From a candidate division WOR-3 bacterium (lineage in GTDB: Bacteria; Hydrothermota; Tepidihabitantia; Tepidihabitantales; JBDRVQ01), in the NCBI GenBank assembly GCA_039801905.1, contig JBDRVQ010000001.1, positions 29,635 through 93,634 on the forward strand: a stretch of 64,000 nucleotides of DNA, read 5' to 3'. Every line of letters starts with the position of its first letter. Position 1 is the first letter of the stretch. Under the pieces are notes generated by a model that worked only from the letters and a program-made list of their open reading frames with translations, ran no database searches and was not told the DNA's origin. The translations under genes and the position numbers were made by a program. This document shows positions 19,472 to 38,640 of this stretch, one piece after another.

Positions 19472-20356
19472 TTAATTGATAATGATTTCTATTTTAGAAT
19501 ATTTAGGGGAAAGACCGGGCAGAAAACGGGGAGCAATGGCTATCGTCCCCTTAGGAAGGAGAATCCTCTTCTTCAATTCCCTTTCCACCACCTCCACCCA
19601 ACCCGGTAGGAGCTCTTCCTTCTCGGAATAAACAAAGCAAGTGATCTCCCTCTTAAAATTCTCCTTTACCAGATTTGCCGCCTCATCCCATATCTCCTTC
19701 GCCTGAGAAGTCAAATCTTCACCTCCTTCCCCAAATATCTCCCGGGCGGAGATGGCGATAATCTTCTGCCCTTTTTCTTCGTAGAAAATCCCAGGTATTT
19801 TCAAAGGCTCACCCAAAATTTTCGTCTCGTTGCCAATCGCATCATAAGCCGAGAAAGAGAAGGAATAAACCTCACCCGGGATTATCACCTCTCCGGTATT
19901 CTTCCTTCCGTTCCAAACGATGGTTGCCGGTGGCATCCCCTTCCCTTCCAACCTTCTCACCTCCTCTCCTTGGCTATCAAAAATTATCAGACGCCAGGAG
20001 GCAACCGTCTTCTCAAAATGGGGAAATAGGATTAAGACATCACCGTAGATAAATCTCTTTTTCACTGGCACCCGTAAATAGTTGGAGGTGATAAAAAGAG
20101 AGGGAATCGTTAGGGAGTCTACTGTGTAATATAACCGCTCATCGTAGATGTAACCCGAAGGTTTGAGCCTTTCTTCAATTAAAAGGAAAGGGTTGATGGG
20201 AGGCGGGGTGAAGAGTTTCCTTTCGGTGATTAGGTAAGGCTTCTCCCCCTTTATCACCTCTTCCCCAATCTCATAAGGTCTCTTTACCTTACCCGTATCC
20301 GGCTTCAAGGTATCGGGAATTTGGGTGAAGAAAAGAAGAATGAAGAGGTAAATCAC
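19472..20356 (-). CDS. hypothetical exported protein (N-terminal TM/signal; FlgD-Ig-like beta domain), last gene of the TonB operon
   Basis: Hydrophobic N-terminus; no recognisable catalytic motif. Confidence 0.5.
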   Translation of the reverse strand: MIYLFILLFFTQIPDTLKPDTGKVKRPYEIGEEVIKGEKPYLITERKLFTPPPINPFLLIEERLKPSGYIYDERLYYTVDSLTIPSLFITSNYLRVPVKKRFIYGDVLILFPHFEKTVASWRLIIFDSQGEEVRRLEGKGMPPATIVWNGRKNTGEVIIPGEVYSFSFSAYDAIGNETKILGEPLKIPGIFYEEKGQKIIAISAREIFGEGGEDLTSQAKEIWDEAANLVKENFKREITCFVYSEKEELLPGWVEVVERELKKRILLPKGTIAIAPRFLPGLSPKYSKIEIIIN

Positions 20357-21234
20357 ATTAACTCAAACCGAACCGTCACCAATCCCCACTGCGTTTCCTT
20401 CTTCACATTCTCCGGTAAAGGGGCAAACTTCCAACTGGCGAGCGCCATCAGAACCGCTCGGTCTAAATCCGGATAGCCAGAACTTTCCACTACTTCCATA
20501 TTCTCCCGCACATCACCTTCGGGTGTTACCCAAAGCCGGATGATGATTGTTCCGGAAACTCCCTTCTTTAACGCCCAGTCCGGATACCGGGGCAAAACCT
20601 TCCGAAGAATCTTCCTTTCGCTGATGGGACCCGAAACTACGATTGCCGACTGTTGGCAAACGGAAGGGAGAACCGAAGTCACCTCCTCTTTTCCCTTCCG
20701 CTCCAGTAATTTTTCCTTTGGCTTTTCTACCGGTTTTGTCTCAAGTTTGATGGCTGGCTCTTCCAAAACTCCCGGATAACCGGCGATCCCCAAACCACCC
20801 GTTCCCCTTCGGGCACCGTGGGTTAAGGGAACCGGCGCCTCCTTCAAAATCTCTTCGGTAGTCTTTGTCACCCCTTTAATCTTATCCGCAATCCTAATCG
20901 CCCCCATCTCCTCTCCGGTCTCAAAACGGGAAAGGTCAATCTTCGCCTGACTTCTTTCCAACTTCCGGTTCAAATCATAAGCCACCTCTTCTCCACCCCC
21001 ACCCGTACCTGTGACCGAAGCCGGGACCTCCGCCTCTATTGGTCCAAAACCTTCCTTTGGTGGGGGAAGGATCTTCGCCACCTCCGGTCGGTAGGTCTGG
21101 TCAATCAGAGAAACCTCTTTTATCTCCTCATAAGAGAAGACCCTTTCCCGGCGGGAGTTGAAAAATAAAAATAGTAAAAGATGAAAGAGGATTGAGAGGG
21201 CTAAAGAAATCTCTGTTGGTTTTAACCTTCTCAT
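20353..21234 (-). CDS. tonB: energy transducer TonB
   Basis: N-terminal TM anchor, Pro/Glu/Lys-rich spacer, C-terminal TonB domain (GTIIIRLWVTPEGDV...). Confidence 0.75.
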   Translation of the reverse strand: MRRLKPTEISLALSILFHLLLFLFFNSRRERVFSYEEIKEVSLIDQTYRPEVAKILPPPKEGFGPIEAEVPASVTGTGGGGEEVAYDLNRKLERSQAKIDLSRFETGEEMGAIRIADKIKGVTKTTEEILKEAPVPLTHGARRGTGGLGIAGYPGVLEEPAIKLETKPVEKPKEKLLERKGKEEVTSVLPSVCQQSAIVVSGPISERKILRKVLPRYPDWALKKGVSGTIIIRLWVTPEGDVRENMEVVESSGYPDLDRAVLMALASWKFAPLPENVKKETQWGLVTVRFELM

Positions 21235-21686
21235 TTCTTTTTGGTCGCGCAGGCAATTCTCTTCGCCCCTGCCCCTTTCGCCAGGGAAAGGAGTTCTAAG
21301 ACATCCTCATAAAGAACCTCCTTATCCGCCCGGACGACAACCAACCGATAAGGGTCACGCTCAATTATCTTTCGGATCTCCTCCTTCATCGCTTCCTTAG
21401 TGATTGGCACATCTTGAAAGAATAACTTACCATCCTGGGTTAAGGCAATCGCGATATCATCCTCCACCTTTCTCTCGGCGGTATGAGCGGAAGGGACATT
21501 CACCGGTATTCGGGTATGACTCATCACCATCGGCGCCACCATTATCATCATCACCACCAAAAGGAGACCGATACAAGCCATCGGCAGGATATCAATATTT
21601 GCCACTCCCTTTCTCTTCATCTTTCCCTTAAAAATTTTAGCCAAAGATGAGAAAATGTCAATTTTCATTTTAGCCGCAAAAGACAC
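21231..21686 (-). CDS. exbD: biopolymer transport protein ExbD/TolR
   Basis: Single N-terminal TM and ExbD-like periplasmic domain; about 150 aa. Confidence 0.7.
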   Translation of the reverse strand: MSFAAKMKIDIFSSLAKIFKGKMKRKGVANIDILPMACIGLLLVVMMIMVAPMVMSHTRIPVNVPSAHTAERKVEDDIAIALTQDGKLFFQDVPITKEAMKEEIRKIIERDPYRLVVVRADKEVLYEDVLELLSLAKGAGAKRIACATKKK

Positions 21687-22072
21687 AATTGCCCCGCCCC
21701 CAACCTCTTCGCCATATCCAAAATTGTCACTACCCGCTCGTAGCGAATCCCCTTCTCCGCGCTGACGATTACCCTCTTCTCTAAACTCCGCGCCAAAAGT
21801 TGCGGTAAAAGTTCTTCCAATTTCTCATAGGTGACAACCTCTTCATTGAGGAGGATACCCCCATCACTTTTTAAGTGAATATTCACCTTAATATCACTCG
21901 CCTCTGCCCCCACCGCTTTGCTCACACTCGGGGTGGAAACGAAGATCCCGGTTTCAAAAAAGAAGGGTAGGGCAACAATGAAACCGATTACCAAAGAGAG
22001 GGCAATATCCACTAAGGAGGTAAGGATTAAACCCTCCCTTTTCGGTCCTGGTCTTATCCTTTTCCGACGCAT
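21665..22072 (-). CDS. exbD: biopolymer transport protein ExbD/TolR (second copy)
   Basis: 135 aa, TM followed by an ExbD fold-like region. Confidence 0.7.
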   Translation of the reverse strand: MRRKRIRPGPKREGLILTSLVDIALSLVIGFIVALPFFFETGIFVSTPSVSKAVGAEASDIKVNIHLKSDGGILLNEEVVTYEKLEELLPQLLARSLEKRVIVSAEKGIRYERVVTILDMAKRLGAGQLCLLRLK

Positions 22073-22752
22073 CAGAATTCCCAGTACTCCTTCCGCTCTT
22101 CTTCCCTCTTTATCTCATCTCTTCTGGTCATCTCCCCCCGATGGGCATAAAGGCTCACAATTAATCTTTCCCCAATCCCTTCCAATTCTAAGGAGATATC
22201 CGATGCCTTCTTCGTAAAGTAATTATAAAAGAAAAGGGTAGGGATACCGATAAAAAGACCAAAGGCGGTAGTTAAAAGCGCTTCGGCAATCCCTCGGGAA
22301 ACAACCGCTGGACCACCGGAACCGGTGACGGCGATATTGTGGAACGCCTTGATTAAACCGACCACGGTTCCCAAAAGTCCCAAAAGGGTTGCCCCATTCG
22401 CCAAGGTCCCCATACCCCCGAGATACCTCTCATAACGAACCCTCTCTTCTAAGATCTGACCGTAAAAGAGATTGGAAAGTTCATCCGGAGCAAGATTTCT
22501 ATTCTCTAAACCCAAAAGGAAAAGTCGCCCCAGGGGACTTTTCAGACCGGCGGCATAGCGTTTTGCCCCTTCCCAATCGCCTTCTTTCAGATAGGAGAAG
22601 AACTCTTTCACCCATCGGCTATTTACCCGATTCTTGGCAAAATACCACCACCGCTCAATGATTAAGGTTAAGGCAGCAATGGAAGCGAAAAGCAAAAGGA
22701 CCATTATGAGACTATTCTTAAATATCTCGTATAAAGTCTGGCCTAAAATCAT
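22072..22752 (-). CDS. exbB: MotA/TolQ/ExbB proton channel protein
   Basis: Three TM helices; conserved GxxGTVxGL...AF C-terminal channel motif. Confidence 0.8.
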   Translation of the reverse strand: MILGQTLYEIFKNSLIMVLLLFASIAALTLIIERWWYFAKNRVNSRWVKEFFSYLKEGDWEGAKRYAAGLKSPLGRLFLLGLENRNLAPDELSNLFYGQILEERVRYERYLGGMGTLANGATLLGLLGTVVGLIKAFHNIAVTGSGGPAVVSRGIAEALLTTAFGLFIGIPTLFFYNYFTKKASDISLELEGIGERLIVSLYAHRGEMTRRDEIKREEERKEYWEF

Positions 22753-22764
22753 CTCCTCTCCTCC

Positions 22765-25236
22765 TCACTCCTTTCCTAACCTCTTCTTACAGAGGTCAAT
22801 ATTTTTTGTGGCACTCTCCCTCAACTCTCCGGCCGGAAAGGAGTCAATCACAACTTGAAAATTCTCCAATGCCTTTTCATAATCCCCAAGATTGAAAAGG
22901 GTGGTGGCGAGATTGAAGTAAGCCACCTCCCGGGCCGGATGGTTGGGGAAGTATCTTAAAAACTTCTCATAACTCCGCTTCGCCTCTTCCCAATTCTTCA
23001 TATTGGTGTAGGTCTCGGCGATTAAGAGTTGAGCATCACCCGCCAGTTCGCTTCCCGGCAAAGCGACCACCACTTTGGTCAATTCGCTAATTGCCCTTTC
23101 CGGTTCGTTGGCGGCGAGATATTCCTTTGCCCGAGTGAGTAACAATTCTCCGGCGTATTCCGATTCCGGAAACTTGTCTAAAAACTCCTTTAAGATTAGA
23201 GTATCCTCTTCACTCGCTTTATAATAAGAGAGTTCTAAGGATTTTTTCACCCCTCCCGCTTGCACATCTTCCGGGAAGAGGTCTAAAAACTTTAAGTATT
23301 CCCTCACCGCCTCTTTATAATTTTTCTCGTTATAATAACTCTGGGCGATCAATGCCTGGGAGGGAGGGGCGAATTCGCTTTTGGGAAAACGCTCCACGAC
23401 AAACCGGAAGATCCCTCGCGCCTGTTCGTATTCCCGCGCCTTAAAGTAGACATCCCCAGCCCGAAAACCCGCCTCGGCACTCCTTTCGGAAAAGGGAAAC
23501 TTATCCAAAACCTTCTGCCAGTGCTCCACCGCCTGGCCATAATATTTTAGAAAATAATAACAGAATCCAGCATAAAAGTGGGCAATCTCTAAGGAGATTT
23601 GATTCTCGGGGAATTCTTCAATTACCCCCTCAAAGATATCCAATGCCTTTTCGTATTCCCGACTGTTGAAATAAGAGTAAGCCAATCCCAAAAGGGCGGA
23701 GATGGTGAAAAGGGTATCGGTGGGAAGAGATTTGTAGAGGTTTTCAAAGATGGGGATCGCCTCCTTCAACCTGCCGCTGGCGTAAAGGCAATATGCCTTA
23801 CCCAAACGCCCATAAGGATTCCGAACCTGGTCGTAATAAAACTCTGCCTCAGAGTACCGATTCAAATAGTAGTAGGTCTCCCCCAAGAGATAATAAATCT
23901 CTCTCCCTAAGGCCTCATCCCTTAATGGGTTCTCTTTTAGATACCTCTGGACAATCGCCACTCCTTTTTCTAAATCAGCAAAACCACCCTTCTCCTTTAA
24001 AATTTTATTGAGGAGGGAAAGGAGGAATAAAGAGCCCGCCTTATCTTTAATCGGTGCCTCCGCCGCACTCGTAATCACCCTTTCAAAAGAATTTGCCGCC
24101 TCTCCGTAGTTACCCAGTTGGAAGGATAAAATCCCGACAAAATAATCGCCCAAACCCGCCAATTCCTTTTCCGAAAATATCTTCCTCAACTGGTTAGCCG
24201 TTAACACGGTCTCTAAGGTATCGCCCCGGAGCATAAGGGCATAAGGGATGAAGATGTTAGCAAAGAGCGCCACCTTCGTCTTGGGATAAGAACTTCTTGT
24301 CCGCTCAAAGGCGGCAATCGCTTCGGTGTATTTCCCCAAACCCATATAGGCGACACCGATGAAGTAGTTAGCCTGGGCGGCAAGGAGATTATTGGGATGA
24401 CGGGTAAGGGGACGGAGGAGAGAGATTGCCTTCTCGTATTTCCGGATCCCCAAAAGGGAAGTGGCGTAAAAATAGGAGGCGTAGTCAAAAAGGGAAGGTG
24501 GTGCTTCCTTTAAGAAGGATTCAAATTTCACCGCTGCCCCTTCATAGTCGCCATTGAGATAAAGGCTAAGCCCCTGGTGAAACTTAGCGTATAATGACAA
24601 TTGGGTATTCGGAGAAGAAGAAGCCACTTCCTTTAATACCGAAAGTGCCTCCAAGGGAGAACCTAATTTCGCTAAAGCCTTCCCGTAGAAATACCTCCCT
24701 TCCAAGATCTTCACATCCATTAAACGGGCGGCGGCTAACTTCTCCTCACCCTGGAAGTAATTGAGCACCCCATAAGCAAATTGCACCCGCTCGTCTTCCT
24801 TATAAATGGGATTGGCGGAAATCTTCTTTAAGGCATCCTCCGCTTTTCCGAATTCTCCCAGGACGACGCAGGAAAGGGCATAACCGTATAAGGCTTCGGC
24901 TAAAAGATAGGAGAAAGATTTCCCTTCAAAGGCGAGATACTCAAAAATCTTTTTCGCATTAGCAAAATCACCGGCATTGAAGTAGACTTCTGCTAAGGCA
25001 TAACGAATTTCCGACCCGTATTCTGAACCCCCATAGGTCGCAAGAAGGGATAAGAGTAATTTTTCTGCCTTTTTGTAATCACCCTTCTTTGCGAAAAGCA
25101 GCGCTTCGTTATACCGTTGCGCCAAATCTTCCAACTTCTTCGGCGGCAGGAAAGCGAAAGTTTCATTTAAGATGGAGAAGAGAAGGCAGAAGGTAAAAAA
25201 AATAAAGGGTTTTAAGGTTTCTCCCAATCTTCTCAT
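22765..25236 (-). CDS. tetratricopeptide-repeat (TPR) protein, secreted
   Basis: More than 15 TPR-like 34-aa units (AxxYYxLGxxYxxxGxYxEA pattern); signal peptide. Confidence 0.7.
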   Translation of the reverse strand: MRRLGETLKPFIFFTFCLLFSILNETFAFLPPKKLEDLAQRYNEALLFAKKGDYKKAEKLLLSLLATYGGSEYGSEIRYALAEVYFNAGDFANAKKIFEYLAFEGKSFSYLLAEALYGYALSCVVLGEFGKAEDALKKISANPIYKEDERVQFAYGVLNYFQGEEKLAAARLMDVKILEGRYFYGKALAKLGSPLEALSVLKEVASSSPNTQLSLYAKFHQGLSLYLNGDYEGAAVKFESFLKEAPPSLFDYASYFYATSLLGIRKYEKAISLLRPLTRHPNNLLAAQANYFIGVAYMGLGKYTEAIAAFERTRSSYPKTKVALFANIFIPYALMLRGDTLETVLTANQLRKIFSEKELAGLGDYFVGILSFQLGNYGEAANSFERVITSAAEAPIKDKAGSLFLLSLLNKILKEKGGFADLEKGVAIVQRYLKENPLRDEALGREIYYLLGETYYYLNRYSEAEFYYDQVRNPYGRLGKAYCLYASGRLKEAIPIFENLYKSLPTDTLFTISALLGLAYSYFNSREYEKALDIFEGVIEEFPENQISLEIAHFYAGFCYYFLKYYGQAVEHWQKVLDKFPFSERSAEAGFRAGDVYFKAREYEQARGIFRFVVERFPKSEFAPPSQALIAQSYYNEKNYKEAVREYLKFLDLFPEDVQAGGVKKSLELSYYKASEEDTLILKEFLDKFPESEYAGELLLTRAKEYLAANEPERAISELTKVVVALPGSELAGDAQLLIAETYTNMKNWEEAKRSYEKFLRYFPNHPAREVAYFNLATTLFNLGDYEKALENFQVVIDSFPAGELRESATKNIDLCKKRLGKE

Positions 25237-26525
25237 TCCTTCACTTTTATCCTACCCGCTGGTCCTTTGGTCTTAACGGTGGTCAAAAAACCGGAGTTCT
25301 GAAAGGACTCATTACGGATATCAACCAGGGTGATCTCATAATAGTATTTACCATCCGCTACCAAGCGCGTCGCCTCATCTAAACCATCCCAAGTTAAACG
25401 GGTGGGCGGTTCCTCCCAACCGGAATAGTTCCTCACCACCTCTCCCAATTCGTTTTTAATCAAAAGTTGCCACCTCTTCACCTTTCGCTTGGTAGTATAT
25501 TTCAAATTCATCGCCAAAATGTTCTCCCCCACCCCGGGCTGGGGAGAGAAGATTTTCGGATAACTCTCAATCCAGATCCGAAAGCCACCGAATTTCAAGG
25601 CAAGACCCAATTTATGGGTTGGTTTCAAAATGAAATTGGATTGGTGATGTAAAAGTAAGGCATAGTCAATAAAAAGGGATGATTTATTTCCCGTTCGGCC
25701 CAACCCCAAACCCAAACTGATCTCCCTCTTATCCAAGCCGGTCCTCTGGACAAGCATCCCTTTCACCAATTCAAACTCCACCCCGAAGTGCGGGTCTAAA
25801 TAGCGAGAAGAGAATCCTTCGGAGAAGAGGGCAAAAGGTGATAAGATATCAAAGAGCACCTTTATGCGGTCTTGATAAGTCCGCCAGCAGAGACCGAGCC
25901 GGAAGGAACGGGGATAGATCTCTTCCTCACCAAAATCAAGCAATCTCATCTTTGGCTCCCAAAGGTTCTGGATAAATAGACCAGAAGAGAGGAAAGAGGT
26001 CGGCTTATAAAAAATACCAAAATCCGCTCCGAAACCCGCCCCGGAATAGAGGTATAATGCCTTGGCGATAATTTTCAGGTTGAGACCAAAGGAAAAATTG
26101 GAAAGTGGGGAATAGGCATAAGAGAAGATATAGGCATTCTCATAAAAGAAGGTAGGATTACCTTGATAATTATCCGGGGTGCGGGAATCTAATCCTTCAC
26201 TCCCGAAGTTCAAAAGCGAAAGACCAAAACTCCCGAAATATTTTGTCGGCAGGGCGTAACCGATATATTCCAACCTTGCCCCGTAAAGGGTGAAGTGGGA
26301 AAGCCTCACTTCTTGATTGAGAAGCTGCCAAAGTCCGGCGGGATTAAAATAAGTTGCCTCTTGGTCATCCGCCAAACCGCAGAAAGCCTTGCCCAAGGCT
26401 AAACTTCTGGGAGTTACCCCATAATTCAAAAAGGCACCAGGTTCCCCTCCGGGAAAGGCATAAGACGAATAAGCAAAAAATAAGATGGCAAAACCTAGGA
26501 AATTAAATCTTAAAACTTTTACCAT
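25233..26525 (-). CDS. outer-membrane beta-barrel protein, PorV/PorQ-family-like (T9SS-associated) with C-terminal FlgD-Ig-like domain
   Basis: Signal peptide; N-terminal ALGKAFCGLADDQEATYFNPAGL resembles the PorV family signature. Confidence 0.45.
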   Translation of the reverse strand: MVKVLRFNFLGFAILFFAYSSYAFPGGEPGAFLNYGVTPRSLALGKAFCGLADDQEATYFNPAGLWQLLNQEVRLSHFTLYGARLEYIGYALPTKYFGSFGLSLLNFGSEGLDSRTPDNYQGNPTFFYENAYIFSYAYSPLSNFSFGLNLKIIAKALYLYSGAGFGADFGIFYKPTSFLSSGLFIQNLWEPKMRLLDFGEEEIYPRSFRLGLCWRTYQDRIKVLFDILSPFALFSEGFSSRYLDPHFGVEFELVKGMLVQRTGLDKREISLGLGLGRTGNKSSLFIDYALLLHHQSNFILKPTHKLGLALKFGGFRIWIESYPKIFSPQPGVGENILAMNLKYTTKRKVKRWQLLIKNELGEVVRNYSGWEEPPTRLTWDGLDEATRLVADGKYYYEITLVDIRNESFQNSGFLTTVKTKGPAGRIKVKE

Positions 26526-28192
26526 ACCACGCCGATGCGATAGCCTTTATCAAATATCCTGCCGGTATGAGCAATTCCCACCACCCGAACGTAGTAAATC
26601 CCGGATGCGACCTTATCCCCTTTATCATCCCTCCCATCCCAAACCACAACATTCACCCCTTTCCTCGCTCCCATCTCCCCTTTTTTAATGAGCCTTTTAT
26701 AGATGGGATTGCCGAATGGGTCGTAGATTAAAATCTTGGTATCAACATTATCCCTTAAATGGTAGATAATCTTAGTGAAGTTTTGATTCAAATTACCAAA
26801 GGGATTGGGAATGGCAATAATCTCTCCCCGCATCACCTCATTATCAAAGACCTCTGCCCAGATGCCAATTACTGTGTCAACCGTATCCGCCCGGATTAAA
26901 ATGGAATCCCTTTCGGAAACGGAATCTTTTAAGTTGGGAATGGGCACAATGAAACGCGCCTTTCCCCAGCCTAAGGAATCAGTGACGATCACCGAATCAA
27001 GCATCTCCCCTTTACCTTTTATCACCTTAAACTCAACCCGCTTGTAAGGAATCGGCACACTCGCCCCATCAAGAACCAATACCGAAATCTCTGTGGGCCA
27101 ACCGGCCAAGATTGTATCCGCGTGGTTGACAAAGAGGTAAACCGCCTTGGGGATGATATTCAAAAAGGAACGGTAAGTCTCAAGACCTCTCTTGGAAACT
27201 GCCCAGAGATTTTGATTCTCACCGGCAAAATAAAACGCCACCTTCGCTTTTCCACTATCATTAAGCACAATTGGCTGGGGATGGTAAGAAAAGGAGAAAT
27301 CGGAAAGAAGATAAACCGTATCCTGAGCGGCGGTTGGATTATAAAAGGAGTCGCAACCCACTACCCGGACAAGAAAGGAATCGGAAACATACTGTGGGAT
27401 AGGCTTTCCTCTCTTTCCCGGTGTCTGCCAGGCTAAAGTAGTGGTGTCACCAAATTGGAAATCCTCACCGGGCAAAAGTAAAAGAAGTCGGGAATAGAAA
27501 TTGGGCCGAACCAAAAATTGGGAGGAAGTATCGCTTCTGATTGTGATATCAGATAAGTCCCAGGCGGTGATAAAACGGGAGCCCTGAGAACGGGGAAGAA
27601 AAGGAAAATTTGCCCACCCCTCACTCAAAGAGATGGTGGAAGGATAACTGGCAAAGGAATCGGAAGAGAAGAGTCCCACCGTATCAAACCGGTTCTTCAC
27701 CACATTGAAATTCTTATCCACTAAATAAACCTTCCCGGTAAAAGAAAGACCTGCGGTCTGGGGTTGGGGCGAATAGTGTTTACCGAGAGGAGAACCAGGA
27801 AGTAAGGTCTCACCCGGGCAGATTAAGAGAAGTTTCTTTGGTTCATTGGGAGAGAAGATAATTTTTGCCGTTTGACCCCGAATCAAACCATCCTCCACTA
27901 AAATTCTTAAACTCTCATCAGCAATTGTCACAACCGCCTTACACCTTATCTCCCCCCGATAAAAATTTAAGAGGGGTGGATAGATATAAGACCAGGGCCA
28001 GAGTCCGTCAAGAGAAGTCTTCAAAAGTGCCCGGCCGTTATAAGAAGTATCAACCTCACCGTTCGCCTTGCGGGCAACCACATAGATATAAAAAGAGTCC
28101 CCGGCGATACCCCCGGTTTGGGGATATTCTAAAAAATCAAAGTAGGCAGTTTGGGAGAAGAGGAAGAAGATGGAAAGGAGATTAAATATCAT
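26519..28192 (-). CDS. secreted protein with T9SS C-terminal sorting domain (Por_Secre_tail/FlgD-Ig-like)
   Basis: C-terminal VVWDGRDDKGDKVASGIYYVRV motif; N-terminal signal peptide. Confidence 0.55.
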   Translation of the reverse strand: MIFNLLSIFFLFSQTAYFDFLEYPQTGGIAGDSFYIYVVARKANGEVDTSYNGRALLKTSLDGLWPWSYIYPPLLNFYRGEIRCKAVVTIADESLRILVEDGLIRGQTAKIIFSPNEPKKLLLICPGETLLPGSPLGKHYSPQPQTAGLSFTGKVYLVDKNFNVVKNRFDTVGLFSSDSFASYPSTISLSEGWANFPFLPRSQGSRFITAWDLSDITIRSDTSSQFLVRPNFYSRLLLLLPGEDFQFGDTTTLAWQTPGKRGKPIPQYVSDSFLVRVVGCDSFYNPTAAQDTVYLLSDFSFSYHPQPIVLNDSGKAKVAFYFAGENQNLWAVSKRGLETYRSFLNIIPKAVYLFVNHADTILAGWPTEISVLVLDGASVPIPYKRVEFKVIKGKGEMLDSVIVTDSLGWGKARFIVPIPNLKDSVSERDSILIRADTVDTVIGIWAEVFDNEVMRGEIIAIPNPFGNLNQNFTKIIYHLRDNVDTKILIYDPFGNPIYKRLIKKGEMGARKGVNVVVWDGRDDKGDKVASGIYYVRVVGIAHTGRIFDKGYRIGVVW

Positions 28193-28200
28193 AATCTTCT

Positions 28201-28229
28201 ATCTTATAAGATAATCAAAAATAAGTCAA
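28201..28229 (-). promoter_or_regulatory. sigma-70-like promoter TTGACT -17- TAAGAT, 8 nt upstream of the ATG at 28192
   Basis: Read from the sequence. Confidence 0.35.
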
Positions 28230-28242
28230 GCACCCGTTTATA

Positions 28243-28257
28243 GCAATTATTGTGCCA
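28243..28257 (-). promoter_or_regulatory. sigma-54 (RpoN) promoter: TGGCAC-aataa-TTGCT, exact -24/-12 consensus, oriented toward the T9SS/TonB operon
   Basis: Reverse complement of agcaattattgtgcca. Chance expectation in 128 kb of two-strand sequence is about 0.1. Intergenic and correctly oriented. Confidence 0.6.
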
Positions 28258-28363
28258 CTGAAATTCTATCGGATAAATCCCCATTTTCTCCAAATAAAAG
28301 AAGGTTCTGTGCCAATCTTTACTCAGAAAGCCAAATCTTTGCACACTTGCCAAAGAAGCCCCC

Positions 28364-33778: not shown

Positions 33779-35278
33779 ATGGCAAAAATCTACTACAATT
33801 TTATTGATGGGAAATGGGTAGAGAGTAAAACAAAAAGGACCTACGAAAATCGTAATCCCGCCAACTACGAAGAGGTGATTGGCGTTTTCCCTTCTTCTAA
33901 TGCGGAAGATGTTGACTTGGCGGTAAAGGCGGCAAAAAAGGCTTACCAGCACTGGCGGAAGGTCCCACCCCCGAAAAGGGGAGAAATCCTCCGCAAAGCG
34001 GGTGAGATTCTTTTAGAAAGGAAAGAAGAGATCGCTCAGATTATGACCAGAGAAATGGGAAAGGTGCTAAAAGAGACCAGAGGCGATGTGCAAGAAGGGA
34101 TTGATACCGCCTTCTATGCGGCTGGAGAAGGGAGGAGATTGTTCTCCTTCACCACCCCCAGTGAATTACCAAATAAGGTCTGTATGGTCTATCGCCAACC
34201 GATAGGCGTCTGGGGAATTATCACCCCCTGGAATTTCCCCTTAGCAATTCCTTCTTGGAAAATCTTCCCGGCTCTTTTATGCGGCAATACCGTGGTCTTC
34301 AAACCCGCCACTGATACCCCAGCCACCGCTTTCCTTTTGGTTGAAATTTTAATGGAGGCCGGATTGCCCGAAGGGGTTGTCAATTTAGTCTTCGGCCGGG
34401 GTGGCGAAGTCGGTGAAGCATTACTTAGCCATCCCGAAATCTCCGGCATCTCCTTCACCGGTTCTTCAGAAGTGGGGAGAAGAATTGGGGAAGTCTGCGG
34501 CCGGACCTTAAAAAGATGCTCCTTAGAATTGGGTGGGAAAAATGCCCAGATTGTTCTGGCTGATGCCGATCTCAATTTAGCCTTAGAGGGTGTGCTCTGG
34601 GGCGCCTTCGGTACTACCGGCCAGAGATGTACCGCTACCTCCCGACTCATCTTAGAGGAGAAGATCTACGAGCAGTTTATTGAAATGCTAATTGAAAGGA
34701 CAAAGAAATTGAAATTGGGTAACGGCTTAAAGGAAGATACCGACGTTGGACCTTTGATTAGCGAAAAGCAGAGGGAGACGGTACACCAATATGTGGAGAT
34801 TGGGAAGAAGGAAGGGGCGAAGTTAGTCTGTGGTGGTAAACCTTACCAAGAGGGAGAATGCGCCAAGGGCTATTTCTATGAACCAACAATTTTTATTGAT
34901 GTGAAGCCGGAGATGACCATTGCCCAGGAAGAGATCTTCGGTCCCGTTCTTTCCGTAATTAAAGCGAAAGATTTAAAAGAAGCGATTTCTATCTTAAATA
35001 AGACCCGCTACGGCCTCTCTTCCGCCATTTACACCCGAGATGTGAATAAGGCATTTACAGCAATCTCCGAAATTGAGGCGGGGATTACCTATGTCAACGC
35101 CCCCACAATCGGTGCGGAGTGCCACTTGCCTTTCGGGGGGGTGAAAGATACCGGCAATGGACATCGGGAAGGTGGCTGGACGGTTTATGATATCTTCTCG
35201 GAGTTGAAGACGGTTTATATTGACTACTCCGGCTCTCTCCAAAAGGCACAGATTGATACCTGGCAAAAGAGAGATTAA
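33779..35278 (+). CDS. NAD(P)-dependent aldehyde dehydrogenase
   Basis: ELGGKNAQIV catalytic Glu motif and GQRCTATSR catalytic Cys motif. Confidence 0.9.
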   Translation: MAKIYYNFIDGKWVESKTKRTYENRNPANYEEVIGVFPSSNAEDVDLAVKAAKKAYQHWRKVPPPKRGEILRKAGEILLERKEEIAQIMTREMGKVLKETRGDVQEGIDTAFYAAGEGRRLFSFTTPSELPNKVCMVYRQPIGVWGIITPWNFPLAIPSWKIFPALLCGNTVVFKPATDTPATAFLLVEILMEAGLPEGVVNLVFGRGGEVGEALLSHPEISGISFTGSSEVGRRIGEVCGRTLKRCSLELGGKNAQIVLADADLNLALEGVLWGAFGTTGQRCTATSRLILEEKIYEQFIEMLIERTKKLKLGNGLKEDTDVGPLISEKQRETVHQYVEIGKKEGAKLVCGGKPYQEGECAKGYFYEPTIFIDVKPEMTIAQEEIFGPVLSVIKAKDLKEAISILNKTRYGLSSAIYTRDVNKAFTAISEIEAGITYVNAPTIGAECHLPFGGVKDTGNGHREGGWTVYDIFSELKTVYIDYSGSLQKAQIDTWQKRD

Positions 35279-36840
35279 AGGTTATATTCAATAATCTTTT
35301 TCCTTAAAGTCTCGCGATGGATACCTAAAAGTTCGGCGGCCCGGCTAATCTGGCCGTTGGTCTTTGCCAGCGCCTCCTTAATCGCCTTCTTCTCAATAAT
35401 TTGGAGGTTTAAGGTGGCAAAGCTCTTCTCAATCTCTTCTTCCTTCCCTTCCTCCCGCTTTTGGAGAAAACGCATCATACCCAAGGTGGGTATGAGGTGG
35501 TCAATGTCAATCTCTTGGGCATTCTCGGCTAACGCCCTTTCGTAAGCCCTTTCAAGGATGTTGCGCAAGGTTCGGACGTTACCCTCAAATAGTGAGTTTT
35601 CCCCTTTGAGATAGTCATTGATTAAAGTGAAAAGGAAAGAATGACCAGAAGGAGAAAGGGGGATCAGTTTCTTGCCGGGGAGGGCGGTAGCAATCCTCCT
35701 GATGAAGAAGTGAGAAAACCGGTCAAGATCCCTTTCCACAACCGTTGGCGCCTCGTTACCCCACCTCTCTTTAAGGGAAGGGACAAGGAGACAATGTTGA
35801 AAGAGTCGGGAATAGAAGTCGGGTCTTAAAGTTTGGGAGAGTTTTTCCAGTGGTTGATTGGTGGCGGCGATAATCCGGATATCAATCTCCCTCTCCCAAG
35901 AAGCCCCCAAACGTTTTATCCTTTTGTACTCCAATGCCCTTAATAACTTAATCTGAATCTCAGATGATAGTTCACCAATCTCATCTAAGAAGACGGTTGA
36001 GGTATTAGCGGATTCAAATATCCCTTCCCGGGGTAAAACCGCACCGGTGAAGGCACCCCTTTCGTGACCGAAGAGTTCGTCTTCAATCAGGTTATAGTCT
36101 AAAGCGGCGATGTTGACAGTAAGGGGCTCTCTCTTCTCCGCCTTCTCCTTCTCAAATCTTAAAGAGAGGCGGTGGATGATGCGGGCGACCAGTTCCTTCC
36201 CCACTCCGGGTTCGCCTAATAACATCACCGTCGCATCCGAAGGAGCGATCTTCTCAATCTCCCCCACTACATAACTCATCAAACGGGATTCGCCAATCAC
36301 AAAGTTGAACTCCTCTTCCCAATTCTTTTTCTTCTCTTCTCCTACGGGTCTTAAAGCGAAGAAGTCAATCTTGCGGACAACCGAGGGATAAAAATTCTCA
36401 CCCACCGCACTCATCGGGACGAAGGTTGCCCTTCCGTAACCCGGACCCACTAAAAGGTTAGCGAACTTTTTTAGAGAGGCGATACCCACCCGTAAGGAAA
36501 GGAATAGGACCGGGACGATTTTATCAATCTTCCGGAGGGCACTGAAGATTATAAATCCCTGTAAAGCCTTAACATCATAAGGGGCAACAAATTCCATCCC
36601 CCACTCCTCAGGGGTGAGGAGTTCTTCATCTTGAAGGTGGGTGAAATCAATATCCTGAACGACTAAAGAAACAAACTTCCCCCTATTCTTCCTATACCAG
36701 TCAATCAGTTCTTTGCCGTGGCGGAAATGGAGAAATTCAAATTCGGAAAGGAGACGACCCTCTTGGTAATCCCGAATCTGTTCCATTAAAGTGAGATAAC
36801 TCTCTCTCAAATCATCACAAATTAAGATGTAAGGTTTCAT
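35275..36840 (-). CDS. sigma-54-dependent transcriptional activator (bacterial enhancer-binding protein) with atypical N-terminal receiver-like domain
   Basis: AAA+ LLGEPGVGKELVARIIH, the GAFTGA sigma-54 contact motif, and C-terminal Fis-type HTH (QISRAAELLGIHRETLRKKI). Confidence 0.85.
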   Translation of the reverse strand: MKPYILICDDLRESYLTLMEQIRDYQEGRLLSEFEFLHFRHGKELIDWYRKNRGKFVSLVVQDIDFTHLQDEELLTPEEWGMEFVAPYDVKALQGFIIFSALRKIDKIVPVLFLSLRVGIASLKKFANLLVGPGYGRATFVPMSAVGENFYPSVVRKIDFFALRPVGEEKKKNWEEEFNFVIGESRLMSYVVGEIEKIAPSDATVMLLGEPGVGKELVARIIHRLSLRFEKEKAEKREPLTVNIAALDYNLIEDELFGHERGAFTGAVLPREGIFESANTSTVFLDEIGELSSEIQIKLLRALEYKRIKRLGASWEREIDIRIIAATNQPLEKLSQTLRPDFYSRLFQHCLLVPSLKERWGNEAPTVVERDLDRFSHFFIRRIATALPGKKLIPLSPSGHSFLFTLINDYLKGENSLFEGNVRTLRNILERAYERALAENAQEIDIDHLIPTLGMMRFLQKREEGKEEEIEKSFATLNLQIIEKKAIKEALAKTNGQISRAAELLGIHRETLRKKIIEYNL

Positions 36841-38639
36841 CGAGCAATTATCCCCTTAATGATTCCTACTAAATCCAAAAAGGTTACCCACAACTTCTCA
36901 TATTCTTCCTTTCCTCCTCCATAAGCGAAATAGTTGGGGTAGCGAAAGGCAAGCATCTGCAAATCTTCTGCCAGATGACCTTCTTTTAGATTGGGTTCGC
37001 TTTGGGCATCGGAATAAAAAGAAAATTTTACCTTTCTTGCCCAATCGGTTGGGTGGAGGTAAGAGATTTTAATTTGGGAAAAGGATTGGGCGTAACGGAA
37101 ATGGTCGGAGAAGATATGGCTGAAGACACCCTCAATTGTCTTGTCGAGGAATAGGAGGACATCCGCTGCCAACGGGTCAATGGCGACGCAATCCCAGGAT
37201 TGACCAATCTCTAAAATCCTCCCTTCCACAAATTTGGTGAGCAGATGGAGGTGGGGAGAGGAGAGAAATTTGGCTAAAAAACTCTTATACTCTTTCTCAT
37301 CCCAGATCTGGGGAAGGGAATTTCCGGGGGGTAGGCGGTAGCGCTTAAATATCTCATCCAATTTCCGGAGGGCAGCGGGAAAATTACCCTTTACCACAAA
37401 GTTGTGGTCTAAGGTCACGACCTCAGAGGCGAGGGTCACAATCTCCGAAACATCCCTCTTCCCTAGTTTCCTCTTTTGGCCACTCTTTTTTAAGAGAAGA
37501 AGAGCGAAGATGATAGGTAGGGAAATTAAGAGGAGGAGGGAGAACGCCCTTAACACTCTTTGCCAATAGTAGGCGGTCACGAAAGTTCTTCGTAATTGCC
37601 CAATGGTCTTCTCTTCACTCCAAAGTTGGTCGTTTAAGAGATTGGCGACCAAAAATACCCTCTCCCCTTCTTCCCAATCTCTCTTCTTGGTTAAAAGAGA
37701 AAAGAGCGAGAGCATCTTTTCCTTCTTCAATAAGAATTCCCGGCGCTCGTTATAAAAAATTTTTAATCCTTCGGGTTGCAGGAGGGCAAAGTCAAGAAGG
37801 CCGTCACCATTGATATCAGAAAGGGAAAGGTCTTTGATCTCCAATTGGCAGCAGGGCACCTTAAAACCTGAGGGATAGATAAGATACAAATCCTTTTCCA
37901 TTTGGCAGAGGAGAAAGGGAGAGAGTACTTTTATCACCACCTTCCCTCTTTGACCAATAATCGGAATGCCGGGGATAGGAGAACTCTTTTTTCTCTGGTA
38001 GCGCACCAAAAATAAATCAACTCCTCTTCTTTTAAGATAATATATGGTGTCATTTAAATTGAAAACCGCAAGGATTTTTTCTCCTTTCAGGGTCAAATTT
38101 TTTTCCCATCGCCCGCTTGGCAATTCGAACTCGTAGATTCCCGAACTTTCTGCTAGGTAAAACTTTTGTCCTTTCCAAGAGGCGCTGTGGACTTCGGAAA
38201 GGGGAAAAGAGAAGAGTTCTCTCATCCCTCTTTCCGTGAGGTGGTAAAAAGAACTCCCGGTCGGCTGGATAATAGCAAAATGGAAGGGAGAAACCGAGAA
38301 AGAGGAAATAATCTTTTCGTTTAAGATTTTTTCCACCTTCGGCTGGAAGTTATCAAAAGAGAGGTGATAAATCCCATCCTCAGAGACAAGGTAACAACTA
38401 TTAGAATAGACATAGGAATTGATCACCCTCTTCGGGAAATGATGGGTGGAGAGAATCTTGCCGGATAAATCCGTAATAATCATCTCGCCGTTTTTAGTAA
38501 ATAGAACAATCTCTTTCTCCTTGTCTCCTCTGATATTAAGAAATTGGCAGTGGTAGAAATCTTTTCGGGGAAGGGGAAGAAAATACGCCGAAAAGAATTG
38601 GGAAAAGATAAAGAGAATGGAGAAGGAAGGATGAATCAT
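36837..38639 (-). CDS. hypothetical membrane protein: exported FG-GAP/beta-propeller-like N-domain, one TM helix, about 200-aa cytoplasmic domain of unknown type
   Basis: Signal sequence, DINGDGLLDFALL FG-GAP-like motif, TM segment (VLRAFSLLLLISLPIIFALLLL). Stop overlaps the sigma-54 activator start. Confidence 0.5.
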   Translation of the reverse strand: MIHPSFSILFIFSQFFSAYFLPLPRKDFYHCQFLNIRGDKEKEIVLFTKNGEMIITDLSGKILSTHHFPKRVINSYVYSNSCYLVSEDGIYHLSFDNFQPKVEKILNEKIISSFSVSPFHFAIIQPTGSSFYHLTERGMRELFSFPLSEVHSASWKGQKFYLAESSGIYEFELPSGRWEKNLTLKGEKILAVFNLNDTIYYLKRRGVDLFLVRYQRKKSSPIPGIPIIGQRGKVVIKVLSPFLLCQMEKDLYLIYPSGFKVPCCQLEIKDLSLSDINGDGLLDFALLQPEGLKIFYNERREFLLKKEKMLSLFSLLTKKRDWEEGERVFLVANLLNDQLWSEEKTIGQLRRTFVTAYYWQRVLRAFSLLLLISLPIIFALLLLKKSGQKRKLGKRDVSEIVTLASEVVTLDHNFVVKGNFPAALRKLDEIFKRYRLPPGNSLPQIWDEKEYKSFLAKFLSSPHLHLLTKFVEGRILEIGQSWDCVAIDPLAADVLLFLDKTIEGVFSHIFSDHFRYAQSFSQIKISYLHPTDWARKVKFSFYSDAQSEPNLKEGHLAEDLQMLAFRYPNYFAYGGGKEEYEKLWVTFLDLVGIIKGIIAR

Positions 38640-38640
38640 T

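What the first reader, a model, noticed from the sequence alone, without database searches (positions are those of the whole stretch)
28201..28360. Exact sigma-54 promoter (TGGCAC-N5-TTGC) heading an 8-gene T9SS-cargo/PorV-like/TPR/ExbB-ExbD-ExbD-TonB operon, with candidate upstream enhancer half-sites
Minus strand 28257-28243 reads TGGCACaataaTTGCT, a 10/10 match to the RpoN -24/-12 consensus. It lies in the only intergenic gap upstream of 26519-28192 and is oriented toward it. The genes from 28192 down to 19472 are contiguous or overlapping on the same strand, so they form one operon. Between 55 and 100 nt further upstream, at 28308-28355, are TGTGCCAA, TTGCACA and CTTGCCAA, which are repeated TGCCAA/TTGGCA-like half-sites and thus a plausible enhancer-binding-protein site. 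A sigma-70-like TTGACT/TAAGAT pair lies between the sigma-54 site and the ATG. One bEBP is encoded in the window (35275-36840). Sigma-54 control of a TonB energiser plus T9SS-substrate operon would be an unusual regulatory arrangement.
Basis: partly seen in the sequence, partly recalled or inferred. Interest (0 to 1): 0.6.

Follow-up and report, generated by a model that had tools for sequence, protein, structure and literature searches.

The report
Sigma-54 promoter stacked on sigma-70 promoter
The perfect sigma-54 promoter motif is real and recurs in front of the same envelope operon in related bacteria, but it sits on top of a much more widely conserved ordinary (sigma-70, leaderless) promoter, so it is most likely a second, conditional input and not the operon's main switch.

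Summary
TGGCACaataaTTGC lies at 28257-28243 (-), is unique in the window (0.01 expected by chance), and sits in the 171-nt gap upstream of a tightly packed 8-gene operon. The window comes from a candidate division WOR-3 MAG (GCA_039801865.1).

In 89 non-redundant orthologous loci from WOR-3, Stahlbacteria and TA06:
- The 8-gene cluster is syntenic wherever downstream sequence was held (about 44 loci), and synteny breaks just upstream of gene 1.
- 77 of 89 loci carry a near-consensus sigma-70 promoter (TTGACA-16/17-TAnAAT) upstream of gene 1.
- 25 of 89 carry a sigma-54 site with at least 9 of 10 matches (controls 0-1 of 89). It is always upstream of the sigma-70 promoter and occurs in at least four clades. 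One clade has the sigma-54 site alone.

In the window's own clade the sigma-70 -10 box ends 7-8 nt before the ATG, which implies a leaderless mRNA. The same layout is seen at 8 of 15 operon-first genes in the window. The sigma-54 site shows turnover between a distal and a proximal position.

No enhancer (UAS) and no link to the window's activator protein (bEBP) could be shown, and rpoN could not be checked. This is a new member of a known kind, of moderate interest.

The parts
28243..28257 (-). Proximal sigma-54 -24/-12 element (P site), TGGCACaataaTTGC followed by T. GG is at 28256-28255 and GC at 28244-28243. The inferred start site is about 28231.
   Evidence: unique in the window, 0.01 expected. 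The homologous position in L049 reads TGGCACaaaaaTTGT.
28201..28229 (-). Sigma-70-type promoter, TTGACT (28229-28224), 17-nt spacer, TAAGAT (28206-28201). The -10 box ends 8 nt before the ATG at 28192, which implies a leaderless or 1-2 nt leader mRNA.
   Evidence: 9/12 match. TTGAC is invariant and the -10 box is aligned in all six clade members. A promoter scoring at least 10/12 is present in 77 of 89 orthologous loci. The same hexamers precede tRNA-Lys. Leaderless geometry is seen at 8 of 15 first genes and 0 of 38 internal genes.
28300..28314 (-). Distal sigma-54 site relic (D site), TGGCACagaacCTTC. The -24 box is intact and the -12 GC is lost.
   Evidence: It aligns with the intact TGGCAC-N5-TTGC of L001 and L048 and with TGGCACaaaatTCGC of L051.
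28311..28346 (-). Two imperfect direct repeats, TGTGCAAAGATTTGGC and TGAGTAAAGATTGGC, about 20 nt apart. They contain the TGTGCAA motif 88 nt upstream of the P site. Their role is unknown; they are only a weak enhancer candidate.
   Evidence: repeat family D3. TGTGCAA lies 65-67 nt upstream of the -24 box in L022, L032, L033 and L115, but for the window alone the chance probability is about 0.02.
26519..28192 (-). Gene 1, 557 aa, hydrophobic N-terminus (probable signal peptide; not tested with a predictor). It is a string of Ig/macroglobulin-like beta-sandwich domains ending in a FlgD_ig-type domain.
   Evidence: (pLDDT 90, all-beta).
25233..26525 (-). Gene 2, 430 aa: a PorV/FadL-like outer-membrane beta-barrel fused to a C-terminal FlgD_ig-type domain.
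   Evidence: PorV_fam E 4e-22, 79 bits, cut-off 90; the top fold hits are PorV chains 8gl6_F and 6h3i_F, followed by FadL and TodX.
22765..25236 (-). Gene 3, 823 aa TPR protein made of YbgF/CpoB-like and BamD-like repeats.
20353..22752 (-). Motor genes: a MotA/TolQ/ExbB-family gene (22072-22752), two ExbD/TolR-family genes (21665-22072 and 21231-21686; the true start of the second is probably the ATG at 21620), and a TonB_C-domain protein (20353-21234).
   Evidence: In orthologues the alignments to ExbD2 begin at residue 22-28.
19472..20356 (-). Gene 8, 294 aa, with a central FlgD_ig-like domain. It is the last gene of the conserved cluster.
35275..36840 (-). Sigma-54 activator (bEBP) with an intact GAFTGA loop and an unassigned 170-aa N-terminal domain. 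It shows that the genome uses sigma-54. No link to this promoter was shown.
   Evidence: Full-length orthologues are found across WOR-3. It is not near the operon in other genomes.

Best explanation
The operon (Ig-repeat protein, PorV-like barrel, large TPR protein, ExbB/TolQ, two ExbD/TolR, TonB-C protein, Ig-domain protein) is served by two tandem promoters.

**P1, the ancestral default promoter.** This is the sigma-70-type TTGACT-17-TAAGAT at 28229-28201. Its -10 box ends 8 nt before the ATG, so it yields a leaderless or nearly leaderless mRNA. That is the usual promoter layout for operon-first genes in this genome.

**P2, the sigma-54 promoter.** This is the -24/-12 element at 28257-28243, 13 nt upstream of P1's -35 box. 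When an unidentified bEBP hydrolyses ATP, P2 would start transcription at about 28231 and read through P1. That would add a conditional input to envelope-machine expression.

**Likely interplay.** The predicted P2 start lies 2 nt upstream of P1's -35 hexamer. An unactivated sigma-54 holoenzyme parked at P2 would therefore probably compete with sigma-70 RNA polymerase.

**Shown:** the motifs, their geometry, their conservation and turnover, and the presence of a bEBP.
**Inferred:** sigma-54 binding, the start sites, activation, and competition between holoenzymes.
For: **The motif itself.** It is an exact consensus match, unique in 64 kb with 0.01 expected, and correctly placed and oriented.

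**Recurrence of sigma-54 sites.**
- Sites with GG and GC and at least 9 of 10 matches lie within 300 nt upstream of gene 1 in 25 of 89 non-redundant loci. Controls gave 0 of 89 on the reverse strand and 1 of 89 in each of two coding regions.
- In the first 42 loci, 12 of the 27 such sites found in 667 kb (both strands) fall at exactly this place.
- The sites occur in at least four clades of the gene-1 tree.
- In the clade L007/L011/L063/L069/L078 no sigma-70 promoter scoring at least 10/12 was found (the best nearby matches are 9/12 and mostly poorly placed), and the sigma-54 site is among the best-conserved upstream blocks.

**Turnover in the window's clade.** WIN, L001, L048 and L051 each keep one site with GG and GC intact (L051's -12 region reads TCGC rather than TTGC), at either the distal or the proximal position. 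The window still carries the decayed distal -24 box. This pattern is what selection to keep a sigma-54 input would produce.

**The sigma-70 promoter.**
- TTGAC is invariant and the -10 box is aligned in six clade members.
- A promoter scoring at least 10/12 is present in 77 of 89 loci, against 11, 3 and 0 in controls.
- The same hexamers drive tRNA-Lys at 18973-18946.
- Leaderless geometry is found at 8 of 15 first genes and 0 of 38 internal genes.
- Start codons fit this picture. The window's clade, with leaderless geometry, uses ATG. The Stahlbacteria-like clades have leaders and Shine-Dalgarno sites and use TTG.

**Sigma-54 machinery.** The bEBP has an intact GAFTGA loop, and full-length orthologues occur across WOR-3.

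**Literature.** Sigma-54 is commonly tied to envelope functions, and sigma-54 holoenzyme can repress overlapping sigma-70 promoters (PMC4551910).
Against: - 54 of 89 loci have no sigma-54-like site even at 8 of 10 matches, so the input is dispensable.
- The proximal site is not conserved in the two closest relatives L001 and L048, and L049 has GT in place of the critical GC.
- There is no inverted repeat and no conserved UAS upstream. TGTGCAA at -88 is weak evidence.
- A transcript from P2 would carry a 39-nt leader with no well-spaced Shine-Dalgarno site for gene 1.
- rpoN was not seen in the window or in 1.19 Mb of related loci, and the rest of the genome could not be read.
- There are no transcript data.
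Confidence: 0.55

Rival explanations
1. The sigma-54 motif is non-functional here, either a chance match or a decaying relic. The operon is transcribed only from the leaderless sigma-70 promoter.
For: - The sigma-70 promoter is near-universal (77 of 89 loci) and invariant in the clade.
- Most lineages lack any sigma-54 site.
- The distal copy in the window is visibly decayed, and the proximal copy is degenerate in L001 and L048 and weakened in L049.
- No UAS was found.
- TTGGCA (the -24 box) is one substitution away from the common -35 hexamer TTGACA, so such boxes could arise easily in promoter-rich DNA.
Against: - A full 10/10 match has an expectation of 0.01 per window, and about 1e-5 for this gap and orientation.
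- Enrichment is 25 of 89 against 0-1 of 89 in controls.
- One intact site is kept per genome in the clade despite turnover.
- The sigma-54-only clade shows that the element can be the operon's promoter.
Confidence: 0.25
2. One reading: the sigma-54 promoter is the operon's promoter, activated from TGCCAA-like enhancer half-sites at 28308-28355 by the bEBP at 35275-36840. The TTGACT/TAAGAT pair is incidental.
For: The match is perfect, the motif is the only one in the window, and a bEBP lies 7 kb away. One related clade appears to use sigma-54 alone.
Against: - The 'incidental' sigma-70 promoter is the best-conserved element of the region and follows the genome's standard leaderless layout.
- The half-site TGTGCCAA is a relic -24 box.
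- No motifs are shared between this upstream region and the bEBP's own upstream region.
- The bEBP is never near the operon elsewhere.
Confidence: 0.1
3. The site binds sigma-54 holoenzyme but acts mainly as a brake. A stably parked, unactivated closed complex occludes the adjacent sigma-70 promoter, with little or no productive sigma-54 transcription.
For: - The predicted sigma-54 start (28231) is 2 nt from the -35 hexamer (28229-28224), so the two polymerases should clash (inference).
- Sigma-54 repression of overlapping sigma-70 promoters was shown in E. coli, and the repressive sites kept the -12 C (PMC4551910).
- No UAS was found.
- In the Stahlbacteria-like clade, loci with a sigma-54 site have the weaker -10 box TATACT, while loci without one have TATAAT.
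Against: - In most other lineages the sigma-54 site lies 40 to more than 100 nt upstream of the -35 box, too far for occlusion.
- One clade has only the sigma-54 promoter, which must be productive there.
Confidence: 0.1

Closest known systems
Enhancer-dependent sigma-54 (-24/-12) promoters, for example glnAp2 and pspA of E. coli
   Same: The TGGCAC-N5-TTGC(T) consensus with GG and GC spaced correctly, a location upstream of an envelope-related operon, and a GAFTGA-type AAA+ activator encoded in the genome.
   Different: No enhancer (UAS) was identifiable and the cognate activator is unknown. rpoN and the start site are unverified. The organism belongs to the barely cultured WOR-3 phylum, for which full-text searches found no paper mentioning sigma-54 or RpoN.
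Tandem sigma-70/sigma-54 promoter pairs (glnAp1/glnAp2 of E. coli, from established knowledge) and sigma-54 occlusion of overlapping sigma-70 promoters (argT, chaC, mdfA, patA; PMC4551910)
   Same: Two promoters of different sigma class serve one operon. Here they are close enough (13 nt between the -12 GC and the -35 hexamer) for the holoenzymes to compete.
   Different: Here the sigma-54 promoter is upstream and the sigma-70 promoter is leaderless, abutting the ATG. Across the phylum the arrangement varies between sigma-70 only, dual, and sigma-54 only.
PorV (T9SS outer-membrane shuttle) and the FadL family
   Same: Gene 2 matches the PorV/PorQ profile (E 4e-22), and its model superposes best on PorV in the SprA translocon (8gl6_F, 6h3i_F; TM about 0.6).
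   Different: It scores below NCBIfam's cut-off (79 against 90 bits). It carries an extra C-terminal Ig-like domain. It is encoded with a Ton/Tol-type motor and a TPR protein rather than with T9SS genes.
ExbB-ExbD-ExbD-TonB(-TPR) clusters of the Bacteroidota/Chlorobiota group, and the Tol-Pal system with YbgF/CpoB (from established knowledge)
   Same: A MotA/TolQ/ExbB channel, two ExbD/TolR proteins, a TonB_C-domain protein and a TPR protein with YbgF/CpoB-like repeats sit in one operon.
   Different: All equivalog models score below their cut-offs, and the TolQ/TolR models score at least as well as the ExbB/ExbD models. The cluster is fixed to an Ig-repeat protein, a PorV-like barrel and a further Ig-domain protein in about 44 loci.

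Membership tests
Sigma-54-dependent (-24/-12) promoter | GG and GC separated by 10 nt within a TGGCAC-N5-TTGC consensus | tested here: met
   A 10/10 match at 28257-28243 (-). It is unique in the window, with 0.01 expected.
Sigma-54-dependent (-24/-12) promoter | Located in a non-coding region upstream of, and oriented toward, a gene | tested here: met
   It lies in the 171-nt gap, 65 nt upstream of the gene-1 ATG. Synteny in about 44 loci breaks exactly here.
Sigma-54-dependent (-24/-12) promoter | rpoN present in the genome | not testable with these tools
   No RpoN box was found in the window or in 1.19 Mb of related loci, and the rest of GCA_039801865.1 could not be read. Its presence is inferred from the bEBP.
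Sigma-54-dependent (-24/-12) promoter | A bEBP (AAA+ protein with a GAFTGA loop) encoded in the genome | tested here: met
   The gene at 35275-36840 matches Sigma54_activat (E 1.5e-49), HTH_8 and GAFTGA.
Sigma-54-dependent (-24/-12) promoter | Enhancer (UAS, usually inverted repeats) about 70-200 nt upstream | tested here: inconclusive
   No inverted repeats and no motif shared across clades. TGTGCAA at -88 matches a motif found at -65 in one distant clade, but it is weak evidence.
Sigma-54-dependent (-24/-12) promoter | Conservation at orthologous loci | tested here: met
   25 of 89 loci against 0-1 of 89 in controls, in at least four clades, with turnover inside the window's clade. The site is absent from the majority of loci.
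Sigma-54-dependent (-24/-12) promoter | Transcript start about 12 nt downstream of the GC, dependent on the activator | not testable with these tools
   No transcript data were available.
Sigma-70-type leaderless promoter | -35 and -10 hexamers with a 16-18 nt spacer | tested here: met
   TTGACT-17-TAAGAT, 9/12. Orthologues score 10-12/12 in 77 of 89 loci.
Sigma-70-type leaderless promoter | -10 box ending about 5-8 nt before an AUG start codon, as a recurrent habit of the genome | tested here: met
   The gap is 8 nt here. The geometry is seen at 8 of 15 first genes and 0 of 38 internal genes. The window's clade uses ATG, while the clades with leaders use TTG.
T9SS cargo (type A C-terminal sorting domain), gene 1 | Match to TIGR04183/PF18962 above the cut-off | tested here: not met
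   TIGR04183 scores 17 bits against a cut-off of 23. Only FlgD_ig passes (28.3 against 27). The same domain type is also found at the C-terminus of gene 2's barrel and in the middle of gene 8. That suggests an interaction module rather than a secretion tag.
PorV/PorQ family, gene 2 | Profile match at the curated threshold | tested here: not met
   NF033709 scores 79.2 bits against a cut-off of 90, although the E-value is 4e-22.
PorV/PorQ family, gene 2 | FadL/PorV-type outer-membrane beta-barrel fold | tested here: met
   The model has pLDDT 78. The best PDB matches are PorV chains 8gl6_F and 6h3i_F (TM 0.52-0.63), followed by FadL and TodX.
TonB-ExbB-ExbD energiser | ExbB, ExbD and TonB_C domains in one operon | tested here: met
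   PF01618, PF02472 (twice) and PF03544 are all above their cut-offs.
TonB-ExbB-ExbD energiser | Equivalog-level assignment to Ton rather than Tol | tested here: inconclusive
   The TolQ and TolR models score higher than the ExbB and ExbD models, and all are below their cut-offs.

The most novel reading that the evidence does not exclude
A phylum-specific envelope machine (PorV-like barrel with an Ig domain, Ig-repeat protein, giant CpoB/BamD-like TPR protein, Ton/Tol-type motor) has been rewired repeatedly during WOR-3 evolution between sigma-70-only, dual, and sigma-54-only control. In this genome a sigma-54 holoenzyme poised 2 nt upstream of a leaderless sigma-70 promoter would act as a two-way switch. 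It would brake the sigma-70 promoter when unactivated. When activated it would produce a leadered transcript with different translation of the first gene.
Probability: 0.2. Interest if true: 0.55.

Novelty: new member of a known kind. Interest (0 to 1): 0.35.

Why it matters
Full-text searches found no paper that mentions sigma-54 or RpoN together with WOR-3, a phylum with only one recently cultured member. This locus gives a concrete, testable case with three parts:
- a conserved envelope operon,
- a canonical leaderless sigma-70 promoter,
- a sigma-54 promoter that comes and goes between lineages.

The locus shows that canonical TTGACA/TATAAT and TGGCAC-N5-TTGC consensus motifs recur at conserved positions in this phylum. 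It also suggests that leaderless mRNAs are common there, which matters for gene calling and start-codon assignment in such MAGs. The comparative pattern is a natural experiment in sigma-factor promoter turnover. It does not reveal a new regulatory principle.

Tried and rejected
1. **Other sigma-54 sites in the window.**
   - TGGCAGaagatTTGC at 36973-36959, about 120 nt upstream of the bEBP start, lies in coding sequence. In the 72%-identical orthologous locus L134 the GC register is shifted, so it is a chance match.
   - CGGCACaatttCTGC at 2039 lies upstream of cmk, and that gene already has its own leaderless sigma-70 promoter.
   - The site at 33613 has a poor -12 element.
2. **Shared enhancer.** Comparing the region upstream of the gene-1 sigma-54 site with the region upstream of the bEBP gave only trivial k-mers.
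3. **Common UAS.** A k-mer search across 23 sigma-54-positive loci returned only A/T-rich words.
4. **bEBP linkage.** No bEBP or GAFTGA motif lies within the flanks held (±10 kb for the genome loci, ±2.5 kb for the metagenome loci) of the 133 related loci or in the extended L135 locus.
5. **rpoN.** An RpoN-box search of six-frame translations of the window and of 1.19 Mb of loci found nothing. No tool could read the rest of the MAG.
6. **Leader RNAs.** Rfam gave no family besides tRNA on the window and seven loci. The conserved leader blocks in other clades do not fold better than shuffled sequences.
7. **Literature.** Searches for WOR-3 with sigma-54, RpoN or type IX secretion returned zero papers.
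8. **Clade L004/L005/L006/L059/L116.** The TGGCAT-N5-TGT elements about 55 nt upstream mostly lack the -12 GC. They read equally well as a TTGGCA -35 box, so they were not counted as sigma-54 sites.
9. **Gene 1 fold search.** It returned only generic chains of Ig/macroglobulin-like domains (TM about 0.2), so it gives no functional assignment.
Full report
**1. What is in the sequence**

- Read on the minus strand, 28257-28243 is TGGCACAATAATTGC followed by T.
- It is the only exact TGGCAC-N5-TTGC in the 64 kb window on either strand. Shuffles give 0.01 expected.
- With one mismatch allowed there are five sites against 1.27 expected, and the other four lack GG or GC or lie in coding sequence.
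- The site lies in the 171-nt gap 28193-28363 between an SDR gene and gene 1, whose ATG at 28192 is the most upstream possible start.
- The eight ORFs from 28192 to 19472 overlap or are at most 12 nt apart.

**2. Organism and operon**

Gene 1 is 100% identical to a protein of a candidate division WOR-3 MAG, and the locus is JBDRVO010000001.1 of GCA_039801865.1. A cultured WOR-3 strain has inner and outer membranes (PMC12285271).

Pfam, NCBIfam and structure models give the following:

| Gene | Assignment | Evidence |
|---|---|---|
| Gene 1 | Chain of Ig/macroglobulin-like beta-sandwiches ending in a FlgD_ig-type domain | pLDDT 90; |
| Gene 2 | PorV/FadL-like barrel with a C-terminal Ig-like domain | PorV_fam E 4e-22 but 79 bits against a cut-off of 90; best fold hits are PorV in the SprA translocon; |
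| Gene 3 | 823-aa TPR protein with CpoB- and BamD-like repeats | |
| Genes 4-7 | One MotA/TolQ/ExbB protein, two ExbD/TolR proteins, one TonB_C protein | |
| Gene 8 | Protein with a central FlgD_ig-like domain | |

- The TolQ and TolR models score at least as well as the ExbB and ExbD models, and all are below their cut-offs, so 'TonB energiser' is only a family-level label.
- The 'T9SS cargo' label is not met (TIGR04183 scores 17 bits against 23).
- The same eight genes in the same order are found in about 44 genome loci of WOR-3, Stahlbacteria and TA06. The genes upstream of gene 1 differ between them.
- This is therefore a conserved operon whose 5' boundary is this gap.

**3. Is the sigma-54 site more than chance? 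Comparative test**

I collected 133 related loci and reduced them to 89 with non-redundant upstream regions.

| Element within 300 nt upstream of gene 1 | Loci (of 89) | Reverse-strand control | Coding-region controls |
|---|---|---|---|
| Sigma-54-like site, GG and GC, at least 9/10 | 25 | 0 | 1 and 1 |
| Sigma-54-like site, at least 8/10 | 35 | 5 | 5 and 3 |

- In the first 42 loci, 12 of the 27 such sites found in 667 kb fall at exactly this place.
- On a gene-1 tree the sites occur in at least four clades:
  - the window's clade;
  - L007/L011/L063/L069/L078;
  - an AT-rich Stahlbacteria-like group (TGGCATGAGTTTTGCAT);
  - a GC-rich group (TGGCACGGnnGTTGC).
- In the L007 clade no sigma-70 promoter of at least 10/12 exists, and TTTGGCATATTCTTTGCTTAT is among the best-conserved upstream blocks. 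It is followed by a leader of about 100 nt with a Shine-Dalgarno site.

Sigma-54 control of this operon is thus a recurrent feature of the phylum.

**4. The sigma-70 promoter is the more conserved element**

- Aligning the window with its five closest relatives (85-60% gene-1 identity) shows an invariant TTGAC(T/C), a 16-17 nt spacer and TAnnAT. The -10 box ends 7-8 nt before the ATG in five of the six, including the window; in L002 (60% identity) the true start codon is ambiguous.
- Across the 89 loci, a TTGACA-16/17-TAnAAT promoter scoring at least 10/12 is present in 77. Controls gave 11, 3 and 0.
- The window's version, TTGACT-17-TAAGAT at 28229-28201, scores 9/12.
- The same two hexamers sit 8 nt upstream of tRNA-Lys (18973-18946).
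- In the window, 8 of 15 operon-first genes have such a promoter with the -10 box ending 5-11 nt before the start codon. None of 38 internal genes does.
- The genome therefore routinely makes leaderless mRNAs, and gene 1 follows that rule.
- Consistent with this, the window's clade, with leaderless geometry, uses ATG. The Stahlbacteria-like clades, whose promoters lie 60-100 nt upstream, have an AAGGAGG Shine-Dalgarno site and use TTG.
- Wherever both promoter types occur, the sigma-54 site is the upstream one.

**5. Turnover of the sigma-54 site, and the 'enhancer half-sites'**

Two positions exist in the window's clade.

| Locus | Distal site (about -115) | Proximal site (about -65) |
|---|---|---|
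| L001 | Intact TGGCAC-N5-TTGC | Degenerate |
| L048 | Intact TGGCAC-N5-TTGC | Degenerate |
| L051 | Near-intact (TCGC) | Absent |
| L049 | Absent | Weakened (TTGT) |
| Window | TTGGCACAGAACCTTC at 28315-28300: -24 box kept, -12 GC lost | Perfect |

- WIN, L001, L048 and L051 each keep one site with the critical GG and GC intact. This looks like compensated turnover under selection.
- The other two half-sites lie in a pair of imperfect direct repeats, TGTGCAAAGATTTGGC and TGAGTAAAGATTGGC.
- No inverted repeat is present, and no motif is shared across sigma-54-positive loci.
- TGTGCAA occurs 65-67 nt upstream of the -24 box in L022, L032, L033 and L115 and 88 nt upstream in the window. Six of 35 loci have it against 0.8 expected, but four of the six belong to one clade. 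This is a lead, not evidence.

**6. The activator and rpoN**

- The bEBP at 35275-36840 has Sigma54_activat and HTH_8 domains and an intact GAFTGA loop, plus an unassigned N-terminal domain of about 170 aa.
- Full-length orthologues (42-80% identity) are spread across WOR-3, including a complete chromosome.
- In the window's clade it is the last gene of a cluster that also encodes a PQQ/PKD beta-propeller protein and two unknown proteins.
- It is never near the operon elsewhere and shares no upstream motif with it.
- rpoN was not found in the DNA available, and the rest of the MAG could not be read. Its presence is inferred from the bEBP and from the recurrent consensus sites.

**7. Mechanism proposed**

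- Taking the C of the GC at 28243 as position -12, the sigma-54 start would be at about 28231. That is 2 nt upstream of the -35 hexamer (28229-28224) of the sigma-70 promoter, whose own start would fall at about 28194-28192.
- The best-supported model is a tandem pair. The leaderless sigma-70 promoter gives default expression. The sigma-54 promoter gives a conditional, activator-dependent input that reads through it.
- Given the 13-nt spacing between the two elements, a parked sigma-54 closed complex probably competes with sigma-70 polymerase. This has been shown for overlapping promoters in E. coli (PMC4551910).
- All steps beyond motif presence, geometry and conservation are inferred.
- The sigma-54 transcript would have a 39-nt leader without a well-placed Shine-Dalgarno site, so gene 1 might be translated differently from the two mRNAs. 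This is speculation.

**8. Comparison with what is known, and verdict**

- The element meets the sequence, position, activator and conservation criteria of a sigma-54 promoter. The UAS, rpoN and start-site criteria are untested or inconclusive.
- Tandem sigma-70/sigma-54 promoters and sigma-54 control of envelope functions are well known (PMC4551910), so the arrangement is not unusual in kind.
- Three things are new. The organism is from a phylum for which full-text searches found no paper mentioning sigma-54 or RpoN. The tandem partner is a leaderless sigma-70 promoter. And the phylum-wide pattern runs from sigma-70-only through dual to sigma-54-only control.
This is a new member of a known kind, with interest of about 0.35.

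Noticed in passing
window 19110-19439 (-) and window 2261-2515 (+): Two paralogous elements of about 260 nt (77% identity, E 3e-36). Each begins AGGAGG...AAAAAGGGTGTAGCATACAGGGGATGGTATC and continues with GG-rich/TTTAAT repeats of about 12-nt period that carry many GGA motifs. The copy after gene 8 is preceded by a perfect TTGACA-16-TATAAT promoter (19439-19412). There is no long ORF with a canonical start and no Rfam hit. It could be a GGA-repeat sRNA (CsrB/RsmY-like sponge) or an odd Arg/Asn-rich small protein.
   Followed up: partly
window, starts at 1976, 6090, 6279, 12263, 28192, 46371, 46448, 56502: 8 of 15 operon-first genes have a sigma-70-type promoter whose -10 box ends 5-11 nt before the ATG, against 0 of 38 internal genes. 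Leaderless mRNAs appear to be the norm in this WOR-3 genome.
   Followed up: yes
window 18865-18937 (-), promoter 18973-18946: tRNA-Lys(UUU) is preceded by TTGACT-16-TAAGAT, the same hexamers as the gene-1 promoter. The -10 box ends 8 nt before the mature 5' end of the tRNA.
   Followed up: yes
window 21618-21686 (-): The listed GTG start of the second ExbD gene (21686) is probably wrong. Orthologue alignments begin at residue 22-28, and an ATG at 21620 follows an AAGGGA Shine-Dalgarno-like motif. A TTGACA-16-TAAAAT promoter-like site (21661-21634) sits between the ExbD1 stop and that ATG, so an internal promoter is possible.
   Followed up: partly
window 28204-28353 (-): The public collection's gene caller placed a 49-codon ORF with a TTG start across the whole promoter region. 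The region aligns poorly among close relatives, with indels, so the call is probably spurious.
   Followed up: partly
L035 about 2040-2075 (also L036-L043); L078 about 2430-2490 (also L007, L011, L063, L069): The 5' leaders of the operon in other clades contain conserved blocks. One is AGAGAGAC...GTGCTCTCT followed by a U-run in Stahlbacteria-like loci. The other is AAAGAGCAGGACAGATTAGGGGAATTCGGG in the sigma-54-only clade. Neither has an Rfam match, and the predicted folds are no better than shuffled sequences.
   Followed up: partly
Loci L022-L043 and L102-L130 (Stahlbacteria-like clade): Loci with an upstream sigma-54 site mostly have the weaker -10 box TATACT, while loci without one have the perfect TATAAT. 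This could be compensation between the two promoters or simply shared ancestry.
   Followed up: no
window 35275-41246 (-); L134 5462-11548: The bEBP is the last gene of a conserved four-gene cluster (PQQ/PKD beta-propeller protein, two proteins with no family match, bEBP). Its N-terminal domain of about 170 aa matches no family, yet it is conserved full-length across WOR-3.
   Followed up: partly
window 36959-36973 (-): TGGCAGaagatTTGC lies about 120 nt upstream of the bEBP start and looks like an autoregulatory sigma-54 promoter. However, it is in coding sequence and is not conserved in register in the 72%-identical orthologous locus L134.
   Followed up: yes
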